This document shows positions 53,691 to 64,000 of a stretch of DNA of 64,000 bases, in pieces. Below the pieces are notes generated by a model, which was not told the DNA's origin, searched no databases, and was given only the letters and a program-made list of their open reading frames with translations. The first letter of the stretch is position 1. Each line of letters begins with the position of its first letter. This DNA comes from Escherichia coli (GTDB lineage Bacteria > Pseudomonadota > Gammaproteobacteria > Enterobacterales > Enterobacteriaceae). The DNA lies in the NCBI RefSeq assembly GCF_003018255.1, contig NZ_CP027440.1. One strand, given 5' to 3'. The position numbers were made by a program, and so were the translations under genes.

Positions 53691-55298
53691 TCAATGTGCC
53701 TTGATATACAACTCTTTGCTGTAGACATAATCCTGGGGATTATGCAGCGGAAAACCGCCAACGTAGGGTTTAAGCAGTTTGATTAACGGCTGATAGTAGA
53801 TGGGAATCAGCGGTGCCTGCTGGTTGATGATCACTTCTGCCTGCTGATACAACGCATTACGCTTTGTCGCATCAGTGATCTGCGTGGCCTGGTTTAGTAA
53901 GGCGTCATACTGCGCATTTTTCCAGTGACCGACGTTTTCTTCACTATCGCTTTTGAGCGTGTTCAGGAAGCTGGAGGCATCATTGTACGTCGCATCCCAC
54001 GACTGCCGAGACAGCATAAAATCACCGGCTCGTCGGGCATCAAGATAGGTTTTCCACTCCATTGTGCGCAGCGTCACCTGTGCACCCAGCCATTTTTTCC
54101 ATTCGGAAGACAACGCTATCGCGGTCTTTTCATGCAGATCGTACTTGTTGTAGAACAGCTCAAAGCGTAGCGGATGAGAGGCGTCGTATCCCGCCTGTTT
54201 CAGCAAGGCTTTTGCCATCGCGACACGCTCACTCATTGGCTTTTGCAGTTCATCGAACGTCGTCGCGCTAAAGCCTTTTACCTCTGGCGGCGTCAGCGTG
54301 GTTGCGGGCGTTCTCAACCCCAGTACCTTTTGCGCAATAAGCTGTCGATCAACCGTAAGATATAGCGCCCGACGCACCCGCACATCGTTAAATGGCGGTT
54401 TCTCAAGGTTAAAGTTGTAATATTCGCTGTTCAGACGCGGGATAATTCGTAGCTCGCCAGGCAGTGATTTTTCAATGGCGGGAATTTGCTGCGCCGGAAC
54501 CCAGGTGAGATCGACCTCTCCCGCGCGATAGCGGTTATAGCCGGTGACCGAATTATCCAGCGCCAGATACTCAACCTGTTGCAATACCGTATGTTGCGCA
54601 TCGCGGTACTTTGGATTTTTGCGTGCGGTAATCTTTTCGTTAACTACCCATTTATCAAGCACAAAGGCACCGTTGTAAACCATGTTCTCTGGCTTACTCC
54701 AGCTATCGCCATGTTTAGCGATGACATGATGAGGAACCGGGAACAACGTCGGCCAGGCGAGCATCGTCGTAAACCAAGGAACTGGCTGCTCAAGCGTAAC
54801 TTCAAGAGTACGATCATCCGTCGCTTTGATCCCCAGCGATGTAACATCTGCTTTACCCGCAACAATAGCCGCGGCATTGTTAATGTGCGCCTGTGCCAGA
54901 TAGCCAGCAAAAGGGCTTGCCGTTTTCGGGTCAACCGCACGTTGCCAGCCGAGGACAAAATCCTCTGCCGTCAGAGGCTGACCGTCTGACCACTGCAAAC
55001 CGCTACGCAGATGGAAAATATAGCGCTTGCCGCCGTCAAGTATCTCCCAGCGTTCAGCCTGAGCGGGCTGCACCTGGCCTTCACCGTCCATCCATACCAG
55101 ACCTTCAAACAGATCCAGCACAATCTGCGCGGCAGTATTCTCCTCTACCTTTTGCGGGTCGAGCGTGCCTGGGTCGCTATGATTGTTGTAACGAAAGACT
55201 TGTTGCGGGGCGAGCGGTGTGTTGGCGGGAACGTCAGCAGCGTAGAGAGGAGCCGCACTTACCAGGCTGACCAGCCATAATAAATTTCGCGTATACAT
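53691..55298 (-). CDS. ygiS: Periplasmic solute-binding protein (family 5, oligopeptide-type), 535 aa
   Basis: Trimmed to MYTRNLLWLVSLVSAAPLYA...; AGGA ribosome-binding site upstream. Confidence 0.9.
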   Translation of the reverse strand: MYTRNLLWLVSLVSAAPLYAADVPANTPLAPQQVFRYNNHSDPGTLDPQKVEENTAAQIVLDLFEGLVWMDGEGQVQPAQAERWEILDGGKRYIFHLRSGLQWSDGQPLTAEDFVLGWQRAVDPKTASPFAGYLAQAHINNAAAIVAGKADVTSLGIKATDDRTLEVTLEQPVPWFTTMLAWPTLFPVPHHVIAKHGDSWSKPENMVYNGAFVLDKWVVNEKITARKNPKYRDAQHTVLQQVEYLALDNSVTGYNRYRAGEVDLTWVPAQQIPAIEKSLPGELRIIPRLNSEYYNFNLEKPPFNDVRVRRALYLTVDRQLIAQKVLGLRTPATTLTPPEVKGFSATTFDELQKPMSERVAMAKALLKQAGYDASHPLRFELFYNKYDLHEKTAIALSSEWKKWLGAQVTLRTMEWKTYLDARRAGDFMLSRQSWDATYNDASSFLNTLKSDSEENVGHWKNAQYDALLNQATQITDATKRNALYQQAEVIINQQAPLIPIYYQPLIKLLKPYVGGFPLHNPQDYVYSKELYIKAH

Positions 55299-55406
55299 GG
55301 TATTCCTTACCGGAGAAATTATAAGCCCGACAACAATACGCCTGTGGCATTGTTTGCTCAAACTTATCGCGAGTGATTTGGCTCACACTCCGGTAAAGAT
55401 TCCCCA

Positions 55407-55889
55407 TCACGCCAACGGCACATAAATATCCGTTTCCAGTCGCCGCTCTGTCATCCCTTCGGCAAGATTGGTGTAGTGAAACAGGATCGGGGCTTTGCGC
55501 ATTTTTTCGCCGCTTGCAGGTAGCCAGTGGCGAATGATGCCCCATATCGTGTGTGAAATATCGTCCAGCTCGCCAACATGGCGGGCAACAGCATAACGCC
55601 CACCGGTAAGTTCGCCATTACTCACGCCATAACGATTATCGGGGATCGGTTCGCTAACGCTGCCGCAGATATCAAAGCGAAACGCTTCTGGTGCGGTGGT
55701 GGCTGGGTCGTCCCAGGCGACGCCAAAAGTCTGGCTTTGGTTAACAGGAGAAAGCCCCGTCTCTTTACGCCACATGATAAATTTCGCCACGCTGTAGTTG
55801 AGCAACTCAGGGCTACAGCGGTGCGGCAACATCGCCACAGGGATTGATGGGAAATCGATAATATTTACATCCAGTGTCAGGTTTGTCAT
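55407..55889 (-). CDS. ygiV: GyrI-like domain regulator, 160 aa
   Basis: Length and position; lies 108 bp from the ygiS start with no gene between. Confidence 0.88.
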   Translation of the reverse strand: MTNLTLDVNIIDFPSIPVAMLPHRCSPELLNYSVAKFIMWRKETGLSPVNQSQTFGVAWDDPATTAPEAFRFDICGSVSEPIPDNRYGVSNGELTGGRYAVARHVGELDDISHTIWGIIRHWLPASGEKMRKAPILFHYTNLAEGMTERRLETDIYVPLA

Positions 55890-57145: not shown

Positions 57146-58491
57146 AATTTACCCAACGTCTTAGTCTGCGAGTCAGGCTGACGCTAATCTTTTTAATTCT
57201 GGCCTCAGTGACCTGGCTGCTTTCCAGCTTTGTCGCCTGGAAACAAACAACGGATAACGTCGATGAGTTGTTCGACACCCAACTGATGCTGTTTGCCAAA
57301 CGGTTAAGTACGCTCGATCTCAACGAAATCAACGCGGCAGATCGCATGGCACAGACGCCAAATAAATTAAAACACGGTCATGTTGATGACGATGCGCTGA
57401 CCTTTGCCATCTTTACCCACGACGGCAGAATGGTCCTTAACGATGGCGATAACGGAGAAGATATTCCCTATAGCTATCAACGGGAAGGTTTTGCTAACGG
57501 GCAACTGGTCGGTGAAGACGATCCCTGGCGTTTTGTCTGGATGACCTCACCTGATGGCAAATATCGCATCGTTGTTGGTCAGGAATGGGAATACCGCGAA
57601 GACATGGCGCTGGCGATTGTTGCCGGGCAATTGATCCCGTGGCTTGTCGCACTGCCGATTATGTTAATCATCATGATGGTACTACTGGGTCGTGAACTCG
57701 CGCCGCTGAACAAACTGGCGCTGGCACTACGTATGCGTGACCCTGACTCGGAAAAACCACTAAACGCGACGGGCGTACCCAGCGAAGTGCGTCCACTGGT
57801 TGAGTCGTTGAATCAACTGTTCGCCCGCACACATGCGATGATGGTTCGTGAACGACGCTTTACCTCCGACGCAGCTCACGAACTTCGTAGCCCGTTAACG
57901 GCGCTGAAAGTGCAAACCGAAGTTGCGCAGCTCTCTGACGATGATCCGCAGGCGCGGAAAAAAGCGCTGCTTCAATTACATTCCGGAATCGATCGTGCTA
58001 CTCGTCTGGTTGATCAACTGCTCACGCTATCGCGGCTGGACTCACTGGATAACCTTCAGGACGTCGCGGAGATCCCGCTTGAAGATCTCCTGCAATCGTC
58101 GGTGATGGATATTTACCACACGGCGCAGCAGGCGAAAATTGACGTGCGACTGACACTCAAAGCCAACGGCATCAAACGCACCGGACAACCGCTATTGCTA
58201 AGTTTGTTGGTGCGAAATTTGCTGGATAACGCCGTGCGCTACAGTCCACAAGGTAGCGTGGTAGACGTCACGCTGAATGCCGATAATTTCATCGTGAGGG
58301 ATAACGGCCCCGGTGTGACACCAGAGGCATTGGCGCGAATTGGCGAACGCTTCTATCGCCCACCCGGACAAACCGCTACCGGCAGTGGACTTGGGCTATC
58401 GATTGTCCAGCGAATCGCCAAGCTGCATGACATGAATGTTGAATTTGGGAATGCGGAACAAGGTGGATTTGAGGCGAAGGTAAGCTGGTAA
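57142..58491 (+). CDS. qseC: Sensor histidine kinase, 449 aa
   Basis: H-box ([12 protein letters not shown]) and ATPase motifs; length matches. Confidence 0.95.
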
Positions 58492-58875: not shown

Positions 58876-59586
58876 TTACTCATTAATCAATTTTTTGATA
58901 TGTTCTCTAATCTCTAACAACCTCATACCATAAGAGATGAATTTATAATCATCTGTATCACGCGCAGGCAAATTATTAATTAAACAAATAAAAAAGCCCA
59001 AATCTCGTTCAACACCACGATTATATCTAATACCAGCCATAATATACTGCTCATTCGTCATATACAGTGTTGCCGAAGAGGGATAATCAAAAAGGACAAG
59101 ATCTCTTAAATAAGTAGCAGCAATTTGAAAGGTAAAATCATCCTCCATTAGGCATGTCGCTAACTCTAACTGATTTCTGGTAGTTAATTCTGAAGGGTCT
59201 AGACCTAGAGTAATCGCTGCGGTTCGTATTTGTATACCCATTGAGCCAAATGATGTTTTATTTTCAGGCATATCTAACAATCCCATCATTCTTTTTGTTT
59301 CATATATCTGAAACTTATAATTTTCAGGCATACCTCCTGACTCAATCCAGGCCACGCCGCCCAGTAACTCTGGACGAATTCCAGCGGCGTATGCATGTTT
59401 AATTATTTTGTCTCTATTATATTGTACATATGCATCTTTATAAGCATTTAAATAATATACTCCTGAACGGCGACGCGAATCATTTTTTCCTAACTTCCAG
59501 AGTAAAACGTCCATTTCATCCCATTTACGGAACTTCGCTTGTGGAATTGTACAATATCTATTTTTTATAGTGAGATCGCTTTTCAT
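58876..59586 (-). CDS. Lysozyme-like / SLT-domain protein, about 236 aa; putative Hcp-associated type VI effector
   Basis: Motifs in order: catalytic-type WIESGG, then GSMGIQI, then YNRG; ATG at 59586 lies 2 nt after the hcp stop with an AAGGA ribosome-binding site inside the hcp 3' end; track start (TTG, 59613) rejected. Confidence 0.55.
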   Translation of the reverse strand: MKSDLTIKNRYCTIPQAKFRKWDEMDVLLWKLGKNDSRRRSGVYYLNAYKDAYVQYNRDKIIKHAYAAGIRPELLGGVAWIESGGMPENYKFQIYETKRMMGLLDMPENKTSFGSMGIQIRTAAITLGLDPSELTTRNQLELATCLMEDDFTFQIAATYLRDLVLFDYPSSATLYMTNEQYIMAGIRYNRGVERDLGFFICLINNLPARDTDDYKFISYGMRLLEIREHIKKLINE

Positions 59587-59588
59587 AT

Positions 59589-60068
59589 TTAAAAAATCCT
59601 TTCTTCCCAACAACTATATGATTCCGTACTCGCGATATGGTGCTTCCATGTTATATTTTTATAATTAAGAACAATGACCTCTTCCGGCTGATTACCCGCA
59701 TGTGTAATTGAGTGTGGATAACATGTCAGAATATTCGATAAATGTGCTCCTTGCAATTCAATTGTGTAAAACCTTTCAATACAACCGCCAGAATTAACTC
59801 TATAAAAATTAAATACAGCTGATAACTCTTCATTTTCAGAAAGAGCGGCATTTAATAAAGGGGAGGATTTATCTATTGGCTTGTAAAATTTTATGGGGTG
59901 ATGCACTACATTATACTCTCGACTTAAAGAATGGTCGAACTGTAAAACAAAAATTTCATCCACATGATTTATTTGATATTTATTACCAATAGATGCATAC
60001 GAACCACAACCCTCAGAGATCAAACCTTGTATTTTCCCTTTAATTGATAAGTATATGATATTTGACAT
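59589..60068 (-). CDS. hcp: Type VI secretion tube protein Hcp (Hcp1 family), 159 aa, orphan copy
   Basis: Conserved Hcp blocks (H-P-F-K-ID-SSP-L, NITW, C-terminal WEER); no other type VI genes in the window. Confidence 0.85.
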   Translation of the reverse strand: MSNIIYLSIKGKIQGLISEGCGSYASIGNKYQINHVDEIFVLQFDHSLSREYNVVHHPIKFYKPIDKSSPLLNAALSENEELSAVFNFYRVNSGGCIERFYTIELQGAHLSNILTCYPHSITHAGNQPEEVIVLNYKNITWKHHIASTESYSCWEERIF

Positions 60069-60929: not shown

Positions 60930-61244
60930 ATGATTACAGTAATCGCAGAAATCCGTACTCGTCCTGGTCAACATCACCGTCAGGCAGTGTTGGATCAGTT
61001 TGCTAAAATCGTTCCAACCGTACTGAAAGAAGAAGGTTGCCACGGCTATGCGCCAATGGTGGATTGCGCTGCTGGCGTGAGTTTCCAGTCTATGGCACCG
61101 GATTCTATCGTGATGATTGAGCAGTGGGAAAGCATCGCGCATCTTGAAGCGCATCTGCAAACCCCGCACATGAAAGCATATAGCGAAGCCGTAAAAGGTG
61201 ACGTGCTGGAGATGAATATTCGTATCCTGCAGCCGGGGCTTTGA
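60930..61244 (+). CDS. ygiN: Quinol monooxygenase (ActVA-Orf6/ABM family), 104 aa
   Basis: Length and position after mdaB. Confidence 0.93.
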   Translation: MITVIAEIRTRPGQHHRQAVLDQFAKIVPTVLKEEGCHGYAPMVDCAAGVSFQSMAPDSIVMIEQWESIAHLEAHLQTPHMKAYSEAVKGDVLEMNIRILQPGL

Positions 61245-61288
61245 CATTTCTAAAAAGAGGCCGGTGCTGCTACCGGTCTCAGCCCAGA

Positions 61289-62176
61289 TTAGCCATTCTT
61301 TCTTCCCGTTTTCAGTCCTCGATGGAAATCGTTAATTCGCTTAATGGTTTTAACCGCACGCTGCGGCACTGCGGAAGCTACCGACCAGACAATCATTTCC
61401 AGACACAACAATACCGTACCATGTAGCGGCGTTTTCCCTTTTTCATCCCCGCGCGGAACATGAATCACGATACTGGCGTCTTTGCTAAAACGTGAATCCA
61501 GCGCGTTTGTCAGCAAAATAACAGGGATCCCTAGCCGCCTCGCCTCACGAAGCGTTGTCAGCCCTTCCCGGTGCGCTGATTTTTGCGCCATCATGATCAG
61601 AACATCGCCACGTTGAAGCGCGATCAGTTGCTCGGCAAGGCCAATACCCGTACGGTTTAGTGCCGTGGCAGGCAAACCTATGCGGTTGAATAGTCGTGCG
61701 GTATAGTCCGCCAGAATACCCGAAGCGCCAATGCCAAAAATTGCGACTTGCCGTGCCTGCACCAACAACGCTACAGCTTGCGCAAGCGCGTGGCGGTTTT
61801 CAGGCTCTGACAGGACATTACAGGTATACAAATGCCCTTCAAGAACAAAGTCGATTGCGGTGTTAACATCGCTCGTCAAGTTACTCACCGTCGTAGACAT
61901 CTTTTCGCTGGAACTAAGGGCTGGACCAAGCCACTGTTCCAGAGTGCGTTTCAGATCACGCAGCCCGGCAAACCCCAGGGCCTGTATAGCCCTGATAACT
62001 GTGGCATCGGAAGTGTTCAACGTGGCCGCAATTTCCATCGCCGTTTGCTCGAGTACCACTTCACGATGCTCATTAATGTAGCTGGCGACAACTCTTAACC
62101 CAGGCGTTAACTGACTCGCGCGAGTGCGAAAACGCTCACCAAAAATATCAACCCGCACTTTATCTTTCTGGATCAT
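61289..62176 (-). CDS. RpiR/MurR-family regulator (HTH plus SIS domain), 295 aa
   Basis: N-terminal HTH region and C-terminal SIS-like region; start overlaps stop of the upstream binding-protein gene (ATGA). Confidence 0.75.
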   Translation of the reverse strand: MIQKDKVRVDIFGERFRTRASQLTPGLRVVASYINEHREVVLEQTAMEIAATLNTSDATVIRAIQALGFAGLRDLKRTLEQWLGPALSSSEKMSTTVSNLTSDVNTAIDFVLEGHLYTCNVLSEPENRHALAQAVALLVQARQVAIFGIGASGILADYTARLFNRIGLPATALNRTGIGLAEQLIALQRGDVLIMMAQKSAHREGLTTLREARRLGIPVILLTNALDSRFSKDASIVIHVPRGDEKGKTPLHGTVLLCLEMIVWSVASAVPQRAVKTIKRINDFHRGLKTGRKNG

Positions 62177-63120
62177 TTAGCCTCCGGTAGAGGTCGCCCT
62201 GCAATTTGTGATTGTATCTGCGCAGCCATCAGCCCCAGAGATGCAAAGGAGTTAGAAATTGCCTCTTCACGAGAAATCAGCACATAACGCCCGGAACGAC
62301 AGGCAGTCAGAAACTGACACCATCCCGGCATGACTTTTTCCATTGCTGCCAGCTCATCCTGAGGTTTACCACCGGTGTCACCGCGCCAGGTTGCAAAAAC
62401 AAAATCGGCATCCAGTTCAGGTAAACGCTCCGCGCTCACATCCATTCGCCCACCTTCAGGAATGCTCTCAATCAGCGGCGGAAAACGAAAACCCGCATCG
62501 CGTAATACCCGCCCCAGCGAATGATAGCTATGCATCACATTAATTTTTCCCTGGTTTGCCTGAATCACCGATACCGTTATTTTTTGGCTGTCCAGCGTCG
62601 CCTTCAGCGCATTGATTTGTGCCTGATAGCGGCGTTCAAGTATCGCCAGCTGCGACTGCGTTCCTGTAAGTCCTGCCAGCTTGCGATAGATTTCTGGCGC
62701 ACCCCCTTTGAGATGATCAATGCTCACCGTGGGCGCAATTTTTTCAAGTTGTTCAATGGGCGTATTACGGGTCGGTTCTGTGATGATCAGGTCAGGCTTT
62801 GCCGCCACAATCGCTTCAATATCAATATCAGCGGTACCAATAAAGGCGATCGATGAATTATCAAAGTCGACACCTGTCAATAACGCGCCAGATCGAATGA
62901 AATGGCTACCGTCAGGCCGAGTTCGCCCGTGGCTGGCGACAGGAGGTACACCGAGCTCAATCAGAGGAATAGTGATATCAAGATCGTGTAAAGAGACAAT
63001 TCTCTTTGGATGAGCAGGAACAGTGACTTTGCGCCCTAAATCATCAGTAAATACCTGAACAGGTTCTGTTGCACGGGAAAAAAATGACAACAGTATCAGC
63101 AGAGAAAAAAATAAACGCAT
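62173..63120 (-). CDS. ABC-transporter periplasmic substrate-binding protein (siderophore/cobalamin/heme class), about 315 aa
   Basis: Signal peptide (MRLFFSLLILLSFFSRA) then FecB/BtuF-like sequence; track ORF extends 21 codons further upstream. Confidence 0.7.
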   Translation of the reverse strand: MRLFFSLLILLSFFSRATEPVQVFTDDLGRKVTVPAHPKRIVSLHDLDITIPLIELGVPPVASHGRTRPDGSHFIRSGALLTGVDFDNSSIAFIGTADIDIEAIVAAKPDLIITEPTRNTPIEQLEKIAPTVSIDHLKGGAPEIYRKLAGLTGTQSQLAILERRYQAQINALKATLDSQKITVSVIQANQGKINVMHSYHSLGRVLRDAGFRFPPLIESIPEGGRMDVSAERLPELDADFVFATWRGDTGGKPQDELAAMEKVMPGWCQFLTACRSGRYVLISREEAISNSFASLGLMAAQIQSQIAGRPLPEAK

Positions 63121-63130
63121 ATAACTCCCG

Positions 63131-64000
63131 TTAAAAACTGTTCCTGCGCTGCCAGAGCAGTAGCAAAAAAAATGGTCCACCAATCAGTGAGATAATGATT
63201 CCGGCAGGCAGTTGCAAAGGCAAAAAAGCCAAACGACCAATGCTATCCGCCAGAATAACTAACAACGCCCCCGATACCGCGCTCCCCAGCAGTAATGTCG
63301 TCTGCCCGCCACGTAGAATAAAACGTGATATATGGGGTGCTATCAATCCGACAAAACCGATGTTACCAACACACGAAACGCAGACGGCTGTCAGGATTAT
63401 TGGTGCGGCGACACGTAACAACGCCAGACGAGAACTATTCACCCCTAACCCGGTTGCAACCTGATGACCAAGCAGAGCGATATCCGCCGTCCTGGCGGTG
63501 AACAGCAATAAAAGAGCGGCTGGCAACATCCAACAGGCTGAAATACCGACTAACATCCAGTTAGCTGCATGCAGGCTTCCCGATAACCACATCAATGCAG
63601 TTTGTACATCTCGAACATCTGCAGTGGTCATAAATACACCGATACCGGCGGCGAAAAACCAGGAAACACCAATACCAATCAGAACAAATCGCGGGCGGGA
63701 AATATCGCGCGCACAAAAAATCACGATTAAAGCCACCAACAAGCCACCAGCAAGACCAGCCACTGGACGCCAGAACATTCCCAGCATTGGAAACTGGAAA
63801 ATCAGCCACAGCACCGCCACGCTACATCCTTCTTTGACGCCGATTAAACCAGGATCGGCAAGGCCGTTACGCGCAATGGATTGCATCGCGGCCCCCGCCA
63901 TACCTAACATGGCTCCGCATAGCAATGCCATGATGACTCTCGGCAAGCGAATATCCTGCACAATATAACGTGCGTCTGTGCTTACGTTTTCTGGAGCAAA
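63131..64000 (-). CDS. FecCD-family ABC permease, N-terminus beyond the window edge
   Basis: Polytopic membrane ORF; coding frame continues to position 64000. Confidence 0.7.
   Translation of the reverse strand, partial: FAPENVSTDARYIVQDIRLPRVIMALLCGAMLGMAGAAMQSIARNGLADPGLIGVKEGCSVAVLWLIFQFPMLGMFWRPVAGLAGGLLVALIVIFCARDISRPRFVLIGIGVSWFFAAGIGVFMTTADVRDVQTALMWLSGSLHAANWMLVGISACWMLPAALLLLFTARTADIALLGHQVATGLGVNSSRLALLRVAAPIILTAVCVSCVGNIGFVGLIAPHISRFILRGGQTTLLLGSAVSGALLVILADSIGRLAFLPLQLPAGIIISLIGGPFFLLLLWQRRNSF

What the first reader, a model, noticed from the sequence alone, without database searches (positions are those of the whole stretch)
61289..64000. RpiR-regulated siderophore-type ABC importer inserted after ygiN
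Where K-12 has parE directly after ygiN, this window has a three-gene minus-strand unit: a FecCD-type permease (running off the window), a FecB/BtuF-like periplasmic binding protein, and an RpiR/MurR-family regulator, with overlapping stop and start codons. Pairing a phosphosugar-sensing SIS-domain regulator with an iron-chelate/cobalamin-class importer is unusual, since such importers are normally Fur- or riboswitch-controlled. It suggests uptake of a sugar-derived or phosphorylated metabolite or chelate.
Basis: partly seen in the sequence, partly recalled or inferred. Interest (0 to 1): 0.5.

Follow-up and report, generated by a model that had tools for sequence, protein, structure and literature searches.

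The report
Known E. coli fit iron-uptake locus
The three genes are the end of the E. coli "fit" siderophore-uptake locus (fitD, fitE, fitR), described in 2006-2008 with its RpiR-type repressor FitR, so the finding is real but not new.

Summary
After ygiN the window carries, on the minus strand, an RpiR/MurR regulator (61289-62176), a class-III periplasmic binding protein (62173-63120) and a FecCD permease that runs off the window (63131-64000). K-12 has parE directly after ygiN.

It is not new. [quoted passage not shown] This identifies them as fitR, fitE and fitD of the six-gene locus in which fitA is divergent from fitBCDE-fitR. FitE has a solved structure (PDB 3BE5/3BE6).

FitR was shown in 2008 to be an auto-repressor that binds the fitA-fitB promoter region. 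Fur represses the same promoters independently, so the importer is not outside normal iron control. No riboswitch is present.

The cassette, regulator included, is conserved in four other genera with different flanks. It is present in 1870 of 5426 complete E. coli genomes.

The transported substrate and the FitR effector remain unknown.

Modest additions from this work: a conserved candidate operator (TTKACTACTACA at both divergent promoters) and an atypical, invariant second SIS loop in FitR.

The parts
60930..61244 (+). ygiN (flanking core gene). The left junction of the insertion is at its stop codon.
   Evidence: ORF; annotated ygiN; homology to K-12 ends at the stop codon.
61261..61276 (-). 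Terminator-like hairpin CCGGTAGCAGCACCGG followed by a T-rich tail, 13 nt downstream of the fitR stop. Likely end of the fitBCDE-fitR transcript.
   Evidence: L001 10377-10362 on the minus strand; window coordinate = L001 + 50899. This is a consensus match only; its function is inferred.
61289..62176 (-). fitR: RpiR/MurR-family repressor of 295 aa with an N-terminal HTH_6 domain and a C-terminal SIS domain.
   Evidence: Pfam. Published fitR cloning and qPCR primers match exactly at 61292-61309, 61986-62009, 62050-62073, 62102-62119 and 62154-62176 (PMC2593036 Table 2). Repressor function and promoter binding are published (PMC2593036).
62173..63120 (-). fitE: periplasmic siderophore-binding protein of 315 aa with a signal peptide of about 18 residues. 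Its stop overlaps the fitR start (ATGA).
   Evidence: Peripla_BP_2. Residues 19-315 match PDB 3BE5/3BE6 at E 1.9e-194; those entries are named E. coli FitE in PMC2966073 and PMC10553834. fitE qPCR primers map at 62502-62525 (1 mismatch) and 62550-62573.
63131..64000 (-). fitD (partial): FecCD-family permease. The window holds the C-terminal 289 of 345 codons; the first 56 codons lie beyond the window.
   Evidence: NCBIfam FhuB/FecD-type hits. Full gene at L001 12232-13269. fitD qPCR primers match exactly at 63417-63436 and 63457-63476.

Best explanation
The window ends inside the E. coli fit locus, an accessory TonB-dependent ferric-siderophore uptake system.

How it works:
- FitA, an outer-membrane receptor encoded beyond the window, takes up an unidentified iron chelate, presumably a xenosiderophore.
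- FitE carries the chelate across the periplasm.
- FitC and FitD (permeases) with FitB (ATPase) import it.
- fitB-C-D-E-R is one operon, transcribed divergently from fitA out of a shared AT-rich spacer of about 373 bp.
- FitR is the last gene and is translationally coupled to fitE by an ATGA overlap. It feeds back as a repressor on both promoters. Fur-Fe2+ represses the same promoters independently.

What is shown by others: FitR represses both promoters and binds the promoter fragment, and Fur and iron repress independently of FitR.

What is shown here: the identity of the genes, the locus architecture, conservation of the cassette across genera, and the absence of a riboswitch.

What is inferred:
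- FitR binds the invariant TTKACTACTACA boxes that overlap the -35 and spacer of each promoter.
- Fur binds the conserved GAATGA-containing AT-rich blocks at or after each -10.
- An unknown small anionic ligand in the SIS domain relieves FitR repression, so full expression needs both low iron and that signal.
For: - Identity: 16 of 16 published fit primers map to the expected genes, in the expected order and orientation, in the window and in the 100%-identical genome locus L001. Fourteen match exactly and two have 1 mismatch (primers from PMC2593036).
- Architecture: the full locus has the regulator, binding protein, two FecCD permeases and an ATPase on one strand, with a divergent TonB-dependent receptor. 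This matches the published gene list.
- FitE equals PDB 3BE5/3BE6, named FitE in PMC2966073.
- FitA scores 375.7 bits against TIGR01783, TonB-dependent siderophore receptor, cut-off 223.5.
[quoted passage not shown] EMSA binding was competed by unlabelled probe. [quoted passage not shown]
- The cassette, fitR included, is conserved in Kosakonia, Raoultella, Sodalis and a Pseudomonas cerasi-labelled record, each with unrelated flanks.
- Five-genus footprint: two invariant TTKACTACTACA boxes lie in inverted orientation. Each is followed by a 17-nt spacer and a -10-like hexamer, then an AT-rich block: an invariant 21-nt block on the fitA side and a conserved one on the fitB side.
- No riboswitch in the locus.
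- A 2026 genome paper lists the 'fit operon' as a recognised 7.2-kb genomic region.
Against: - The substrate is unknown. A 2018 paper states that it is unknown and that enterobactin is not it.
- No Fur box stands out by consensus alone. The best match is 13 of 19, reached by 518 of 2000 shuffles of this AT-rich spacer.
- The generic sigma-70 scan found no promoter in the spacer. The promoter hexamers I propose rest on cross-genus conservation only.
- FitR repression is modest, 2- to 5-fold.
- No effector has been shown, and the operator assignment is untested.
Confidence: 0.92

Rival explanations
1. The system imports a sugar-derived or phosphorylated chelate or metabolite. FitR senses that compound, or a phosphosugar made from it, through its SIS domain and acts as a substrate-specific inducer switch.
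For: - FitR has a true SIS domain, and its first phosphate-loop motif GIGAS is kept in 7 of 8 orthologues.
- A variant locus (L006) has two PstS-like phosphate-binding-family proteins and a PepSY_TM protein inserted between fitE and fitR.
- The substrate is still unknown.
Against: - The canonical second SIS loop (S-x-S-G-x-T/S; ISQSGRSKD in 8K3B and VSSSGSTKE in 4IVN) is replaced by an invariant QKS(A/P)HREG.
- The conserved cassette in five genera contains no kinase, isomerase or hydrolase.
- The adjacent sugar-like module is an independent insert. It is in 408 genomes against 1870 for fit, and each occurs without the other.
- Receptor and binding protein classify with ordinary siderophore systems.
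- The locus is regulated by iron and Fur.
Confidence: 0.15
2. FitR is a ligand-independent feedback damper. Its SIS domain serves only for oligomerisation, and FitR simply limits overshoot of the operon once Fur repression is lifted.
For: - fitR is the last gene of the operon it represses and is translationally coupled to fitE (ATGA at 62173-62176).
- Repression is only 2- to 5-fold and does not depend on iron.
- The canonical second ligand loop is lost.
Against: - The replaced loop and neighbouring residues (Q198, K199, S200, H202, R203, E204, G205) are invariant across eight orthologues at 69-88% overall identity. This argues for a functional pocket, not a decayed one.
- Characterised RpiR-family regulators are effector-controlled (general knowledge of MurR, HexR and NanR).
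Confidence: 0.2
3. It is not an iron system. It would be a cobalamin, haem or other metallophore importer of the BtuCDF/Hmu type.
For: - FecCD permeases and the ATPase also hit BtuC, corrinoid and haem models at good E-values.
- One genome paper glosses fit as 'Fe2+, Co2+, Cd2+ uptake'.
Against: - No cobalamin or other riboswitch in the locus.
- All BtuC, BtuF and haem models fall far below their curated cut-offs.
- FitA passes the siderophore-receptor subfamily cut-off but scores only 43 bits against the B12-receptor model, whose cut-off is 599.7.
- Expression is induced by iron chelation and repressed by Fur.
Confidence: 0.04

Closest known systems
E. coli fit system, fitABCDE-fitR (Ouyang & Isaacson 2006, Infect Immun 74:6949; 2008, PMC2593036); FitE structure PDB 3BE5/3BE6
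   Same: It is this system. It has the same six genes in the same order, and the published primers match. FitE is near-identical to the crystallised protein, and FitR has the same HTH+SIS architecture.
   Different: Nothing of substance; this is an allele from another strain. It is 100% identical to strain JNE23-011 and 97.7% identical to O157:H7. In this strain a second, unrelated 8.4-kb module lies between fitA and parE.
Ferric citrate system fecABCDE with fecIR
   Same: It is a TonB-dependent receptor plus a FecCD-type ABC importer that has its own dedicated regulator in addition to Fur. FitB, FitC and FitD score best or near best against the FecE, FecC and FecD models.
   Different: Fec uses an activating ECF sigma and anti-sigma pair signalled from the receptor. 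Fit uses a cytoplasmic RpiR-type repressor. FitA is 713 aa, and its match to the FecA model covers only the C-terminal barrel. All Fec equivalog cut-offs are missed.
Hydroxamate uptake systems FhuA/FoxA/FhuE with FhuD-FhuB-FhuC
   Same: FitA's nearest solved relatives are FoxA, the enantio-pyochelin receptor and FhuA, at E about 1e-44 to 1e-48. FitE's next-nearest solved relatives after itself are YfiY and FhuD-type binders.
   Different: Scores are far below the equivalog cut-offs, for example FhuA 230 against 803 and FoxA 167 against 1300. Fhu has a fused FhuB permease and no dedicated regulator.
RpiR/MurR-family effector-controlled repressors (MurR, HexR, NanR, RpiR/AlsR)
   Same: FitR has the HTH_6 + SIS architecture and aligns over its full length to solved family members at E about 1e-15. 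The first SIS loop, G-x-G-x-S, is conserved.
   Different: FitR controls a siderophore importer, not a sugar pathway. The second SIS loop is replaced by QKS(A/P)HREG. All named equivalog models score far below cut-off, with the best at 79 bits against a cut-off of 920. No effector is known.

Membership tests
E. coli fit iron transport locus | Six genes: fitA (receptor) divergent from fitB (ATPase), fitC and fitD (permeases), fitE (binding protein) and fitR (regulator) | tested here: met
   One search shows this order in the genome that is 100% identical to the window. Searches cover the three genes inside the window.
E. coli fit iron transport locus | Sequence identity with the published locus of strain i484 | tested here: met
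   all 16 primers of PMC2593036 Table 2 map to the expected genes and orientations, 14 with no mismatch and 2 with one mismatch.
E. coli fit iron transport locus | The binding protein is the FitE of PDB 3BE5/3BE6 | tested here: met
   E 1.9e-194, residues 19-315 against chain residues 1-297. The entries are named FitE in PMC2966073 and PMC10553834.
E. coli fit iron transport locus | Repression by FitR and by Fur-Fe2+; FitR binds the fitA-fitB spacer | not testable with these tools
   Published for strain i484. Here only conserved candidate sites were found. The Fur consensus match alone is not above chance.
RpiR/MurR family transcription regulators | N-terminal HTH_6 domain and C-terminal SIS domain | tested here: met
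   HTH_6 at residues 15-81 (E 1.9e-9); SIS at residues 138-247 (E 1.3e-13).
RpiR/MurR family transcription regulators | Canonical phosphosugar-binding loops of the SIS domain (G-x-G-x-S and S-x-S-G-x-S/T) | tested here: inconclusive
   The first loop is present (GIGAS in 7 of 8 orthologues, GINAS in Sodalis). The second is replaced by QKS(A/P)HREG, invariant in 8 orthologues. Which residues contact the ligand is taken from general knowledge of SIS domains, not tested here.
Class III (cluster A) periplasmic binding proteins of iron-chelate importers | Peripla_BP_2 fold and sequence family | tested here: met
   (E 7e-18); solved relatives.
Named binding-protein orthologues FepB / FecB / FhuD / BtuF | Score above the curated equivalog cut-off | tested here: not met
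   FepB model 50 bits against a cut-off of 205; FecB model 35.4 against 320; no FhuD or BtuF model hit at E <= 0.001.
TonB-dependent siderophore receptors (TIGR01783) | Score above the subfamily cut-off over the full length | tested here: met
   FitA scores 375.7 bits against a cut-off of 223.5, over residues 73-713.
Riboswitch-controlled BtuCDF-type cobalamin importers | Cobalamin riboswitch upstream of the operon or receptor | tested here: not met
   no Rfam family reached threshold in L001 10000-17800. The only hit, at E 0.07, is a plant microRNA model far below its cut-off.

The most novel reading that the evidence does not exclude
FitR is a real ligand-gated switch whose atypical, basic SIS pocket (invariant K199, H202, R203) senses an anionic metabolite. 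That metabolite would be either a breakdown product of the imported chelate or a carbon-status signal. FitR would act through the two invariant TTKACTACTACA boxes at the divergent promoters, possibly by looping about 150-173 bp of DNA. Full induction of this xenosiderophore importer would then require both iron starvation (Fur) and presence of the cognate substrate or signal. The effector and the substrate would both be new.
Probability: 0.3. Interest if true: 0.4.

Novelty: already known. Interest (0 to 1): 0.15.

Why it matters
As a discovery it does not matter much. The fit locus is a named accessory iron-uptake island of pathogenic E. coli, used as an ExPEC/AIEC marker, with a published regulator study and a crystal structure of its binding protein.

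The remaining value lies in two open questions that the literature still states: what chelate Fit transports, and what signal FitR reads. The conserved operator candidate and the unusual SIS loop found here give concrete handles for testing the second question.

Tried and rejected
- **Fur-box consensus scan of the fitA-fitB spacer.** The best match was 13 of 19, which 26% of shuffles reach. It cannot be used alone as evidence of a Fur site. I rely on the published fur-mutant data and on cross-genus conservation.
- **Generic sigma-70 promoter scan.** It found nothing in the spacer. The promoters I propose come from the five-genus footprint.
- **Rfam scan for a cobalamin or other riboswitch.** Nothing was found.
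- **The 2006 founding paper (PMC1698097).** It is not held. My recollection that it reported ferrichrome transport could not be verified, so I dropped it. A 2018 paper says the substrate is unknown and is not enterobactin.
- **Whether the neighbouring MFS / GntR / ADP-ribosylglycohydrolase / SIS / kinase module supplies FitR's signal.** I rejected this as a necessary partner. It is in 408 genomes against 1870 for fit, each occurs without the other, and it does not travel with the cassette in other genera.
- **Direct repeats at the insertion junctions.** None are evident. The K-12 spacer is simply replaced.
- **Literature searches for a FitR effector or newer functional work.** Nothing was found beyond the 2008 paper.
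Full report
**What is in the window.**
From 61289 to 64000 the minus strand carries three consecutive ORFs.
- A 295-aa protein (61289-62176) has an rpiR-type HTH_6 domain and a SIS domain.
- A 315-aa Peripla_BP_2 periplasmic binding protein (62173-63120) follows.
- A FecCD-family permease begins beyond the window and ends at 63131.

The upstream flank is qseBC, ygiZ, mdaB and ygiN of E. coli. In K-12 MG1655, ygiN is followed after 47 bp by parE. Alignment of the junctions shows that homology to K-12 ends at the ygiN stop codon and resumes at the parE stop codon.

One detail needs correction. Only the binding-protein/regulator junction has overlapping stop and start codons (ATGA at 62173-62176). 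The permease stop (63131-63133) is separated from the binding-protein ATG (63120) by 10 nt carrying a GGGAG ribosome-binding site. That start is the one used by RefSeq. It is also consistent with the crystallised protein beginning at residue 19, after a signal peptide.

**What it is.**
The window is 100% identical to E. coli JNE23-011. In that genome the locus continues with the rest of the permease gene, a second FecCD permease, an ABC ATPase, a 373-bp AT-rich spacer and a divergent TonB-dependent siderophore receptor.

This is the gene list and order of the 'fit' system of Ouyang and Isaacson: fitA; fitB, C, D, E; fitR (PMC2593036). I tested the identity directly. All 16 fit primers in Table 2 of that paper map to the window or the extended locus, in the right genes and orientations. 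Fourteen match exactly and two have one mismatch.
- The fitR expression primer begins at the ATG at 62176.
- The reverse fitR primer ends one codon before the stop at 61289.
- The fitE and fitD qPCR primers fall in the second and third ORFs.
- The 'fit promoter' primers bracket the spacer at L001 15061-15419.

The binding protein matches PDB 3BE5/3BE6 at E 1.9e-194. Two papers name those entries as E. coli FitE. A 2026 genome comparison lists the 'fit operon' as a recognised 7.2-kb genomic region of ExPEC/AIEC strains. That size matches the 7.3-kb ygiN-parE interval of O157:H7, which holds only fit.

**What is already known about its regulation.**
- FitR overexpression repressed fitB-lacZ 3.2-fold, and a fitR knockout derepressed it.
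- Purified FitR shifted the promoter fragment, and unlabelled probe competed the shift.
- Iron chelation still induced expression in the fitR mutant.

So the importer is under ordinary Fur control, with FitR as an independent second repressor. A scan of the whole locus against Rfam found no riboswitch. The authors left the binding sites undetermined. A 2018 paper states that the substrate is unknown and is not enterobactin. My searches found no later functional work on FitR.

**Classification of the transporter.**
- FitA passes the curated cut-off of the TonB-dependent siderophore receptor subfamily, at 375.7 bits against 223.5. It misses every named equivalog: FhuA, FoxA, FhuE, Fiu, FecA and BtuB.
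- FitA's nearest solved relatives are FoxA, the enantio-pyochelin receptor and FhuA, at about 1e-44 to 1e-48.
- FitE is well below the FepB and FecB cut-offs. After itself, its nearest solved relatives are YfiY and FhuD-type siderophore binders.

This points to an ordinary ferric-siderophore system of its own specificity. It is probably xenosiderophore piracy, since the cassette carries no biosynthesis genes. That last step is inference.

**Is the regulator really part of the module?**
FitR orthologues of 69-80% identity occur in Lelliottia, Kosakonia, Enterobacter, Raoultella, Klebsiella, Erwinia, Sodalis and others. In four records I examined, the same cassette is intact while the flanking genes differ completely. 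These were Kosakonia, Raoultella, Sodalis and a record labelled Pseudomonas cerasi. In each, the receptor is divergent from ATPase, two permeases, binding protein and regulator.

Within E. coli the cassette is in 1870 of 5426 complete genomes. The ygiN-parE site exists in four states:
- empty (K-12);
- fit only (O157:H7);
- a different 8.4-kb module only (NC19);
- both, as in this strain, where 15.6 kb lies between ygiN and parE.

The second module comprises MFS, GntR, ADP-ribosylglycohydrolase, SIS, carbohydrate kinase, phytase-like, porin and DUF2608 genes. It is in only 408 genomes, so it is not a required partner of fit.

**New details from this analysis (inference, untested).**
Aligning the fitA-fitB spacers of five genera gives 58% mean identity with three sharply conserved islands.
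- Each promoter side carries an invariant TTKACTACTACA box: TTTACT... facing fitA and TTGACT... facing fitB. The two boxes lie in inverted orientation, 150-173 bp apart.
- In every genus each box is followed, after a 17-nt spacer that starts with ACTACA, by a -10-like hexamer. That hexamer is the invariant TTGAAT for fitA. For fitB it is CAAACT, CAAAAT, CATGAT or TAAGAT.
- An AT-rich block then follows. On the fitA side it is the invariant 21-mer TTGAATGATTCTCAATTACAT. On the fitB side it is GAATGAG-N3-TATTTTT-N-TTT.
- The 12-mer occurs nowhere else in the window or in the 121 kb of other loci held.

I read the hexamers as the two promoters. I read the AT-rich GAATGA blocks as the Fur sites. 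They are the best Fur-consensus matches in the spacer, at 12 and 13 of 19, although such scores alone are not above chance. I read the ACTACTACA boxes as the candidate FitR operator.

In FitR itself, the first SIS loop is kept (GIGAS in 7 of the 8 sequences, GINAS in Sodalis). The position where solved relatives have S-x-S-G-x-S/T (ISQSGRSKD in 8K3B, VSSSGSTKE in 4IVN) reads QKS(A/P)HREG. This is invariant in eight orthologues. That suggests a conserved but non-canonical, basic ligand pocket.

**Verdict.**
It misses that the system is already described, that Fur also controls it, and that nothing yet indicates a sugar-derived or phosphorylated substrate. The novelty class is 'already known'. 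The residual interest is limited to the still-unknown substrate and FitR effector.

Noticed in passing
L001 15139-15150 (-) and 15301-15312 (+); would be window 66038-66049 and 66200-66211, beyond the window end: Two copies of TTKACTACTACA, invariant across five genera, lie in inverted orientation at the divergent fitB and fitA promoters. Each is followed by a 17-nt spacer, a -10-like hexamer and an AT-rich Fur-like block. They are a candidate FitR operator; the 2008 paper left the binding site undetermined.
   Followed up: partly
window 61562-61588 (-), FitR residues 197-205: The second SIS-domain loop, canonically S-x-S-G-x-S/T in solved RpiR-family relatives, reads AQKSAHREG. The QKS(A/P)HREG stretch is invariant in eight orthologues from different genera, which suggests an atypical basic ligand pocket.
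   Followed up: partly
L003 902-9144 (between fitA and parE in the strain identical to the window; beyond the window end): A second, independent 8.4-kb insert holds MFS transporter, GntR regulator, ADP-ribosylglycohydrolase, SIS protein, PfkB-type kinase, phytase-like esterase, porin and DUF2608 genes. From memory it resembles the K-12 yegTUVW cluster. It is in 408 of 5426 E. coli genomes and occurs with or without fit. Function unknown.
   Followed up: partly
L006 6007-9004: In a record labelled Pseudomonas cerasi, whose neighbouring genes look enterobacterial, three genes are inserted between fitE and fitR. One is a PepSY_TM membrane protein, the family of FoxB-type siderophore reductases (from memory). 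The other two are PstS-like phosphate-binding-family proteins.
   Followed up: partly
window 58876-60068 (-): An orphan Hcp/TssD type VI secretion tube protein (E 2e-58) and a 236-245-aa hypothetical protein with no family match sit between ygiZ and mdaB. K-12 has nothing there, and O157:H7 lacks ygiZ as well.
   Followed up: partly
window about 55298-55407 (ygiS-ygiV spacer): The mqsR-mqsA toxin-antitoxin pair that lies between ygiS and ygiV in K-12 is absent from this strain and from O157:H7.
   Followed up: no
window 57657-57675 (+), inside qseC: The best Fur-box consensus match in the whole window (15 of 19, GATTATGTTAATCATCATG) lies inside the qseC coding sequence. It is probably a chance match.
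   Followed up: no
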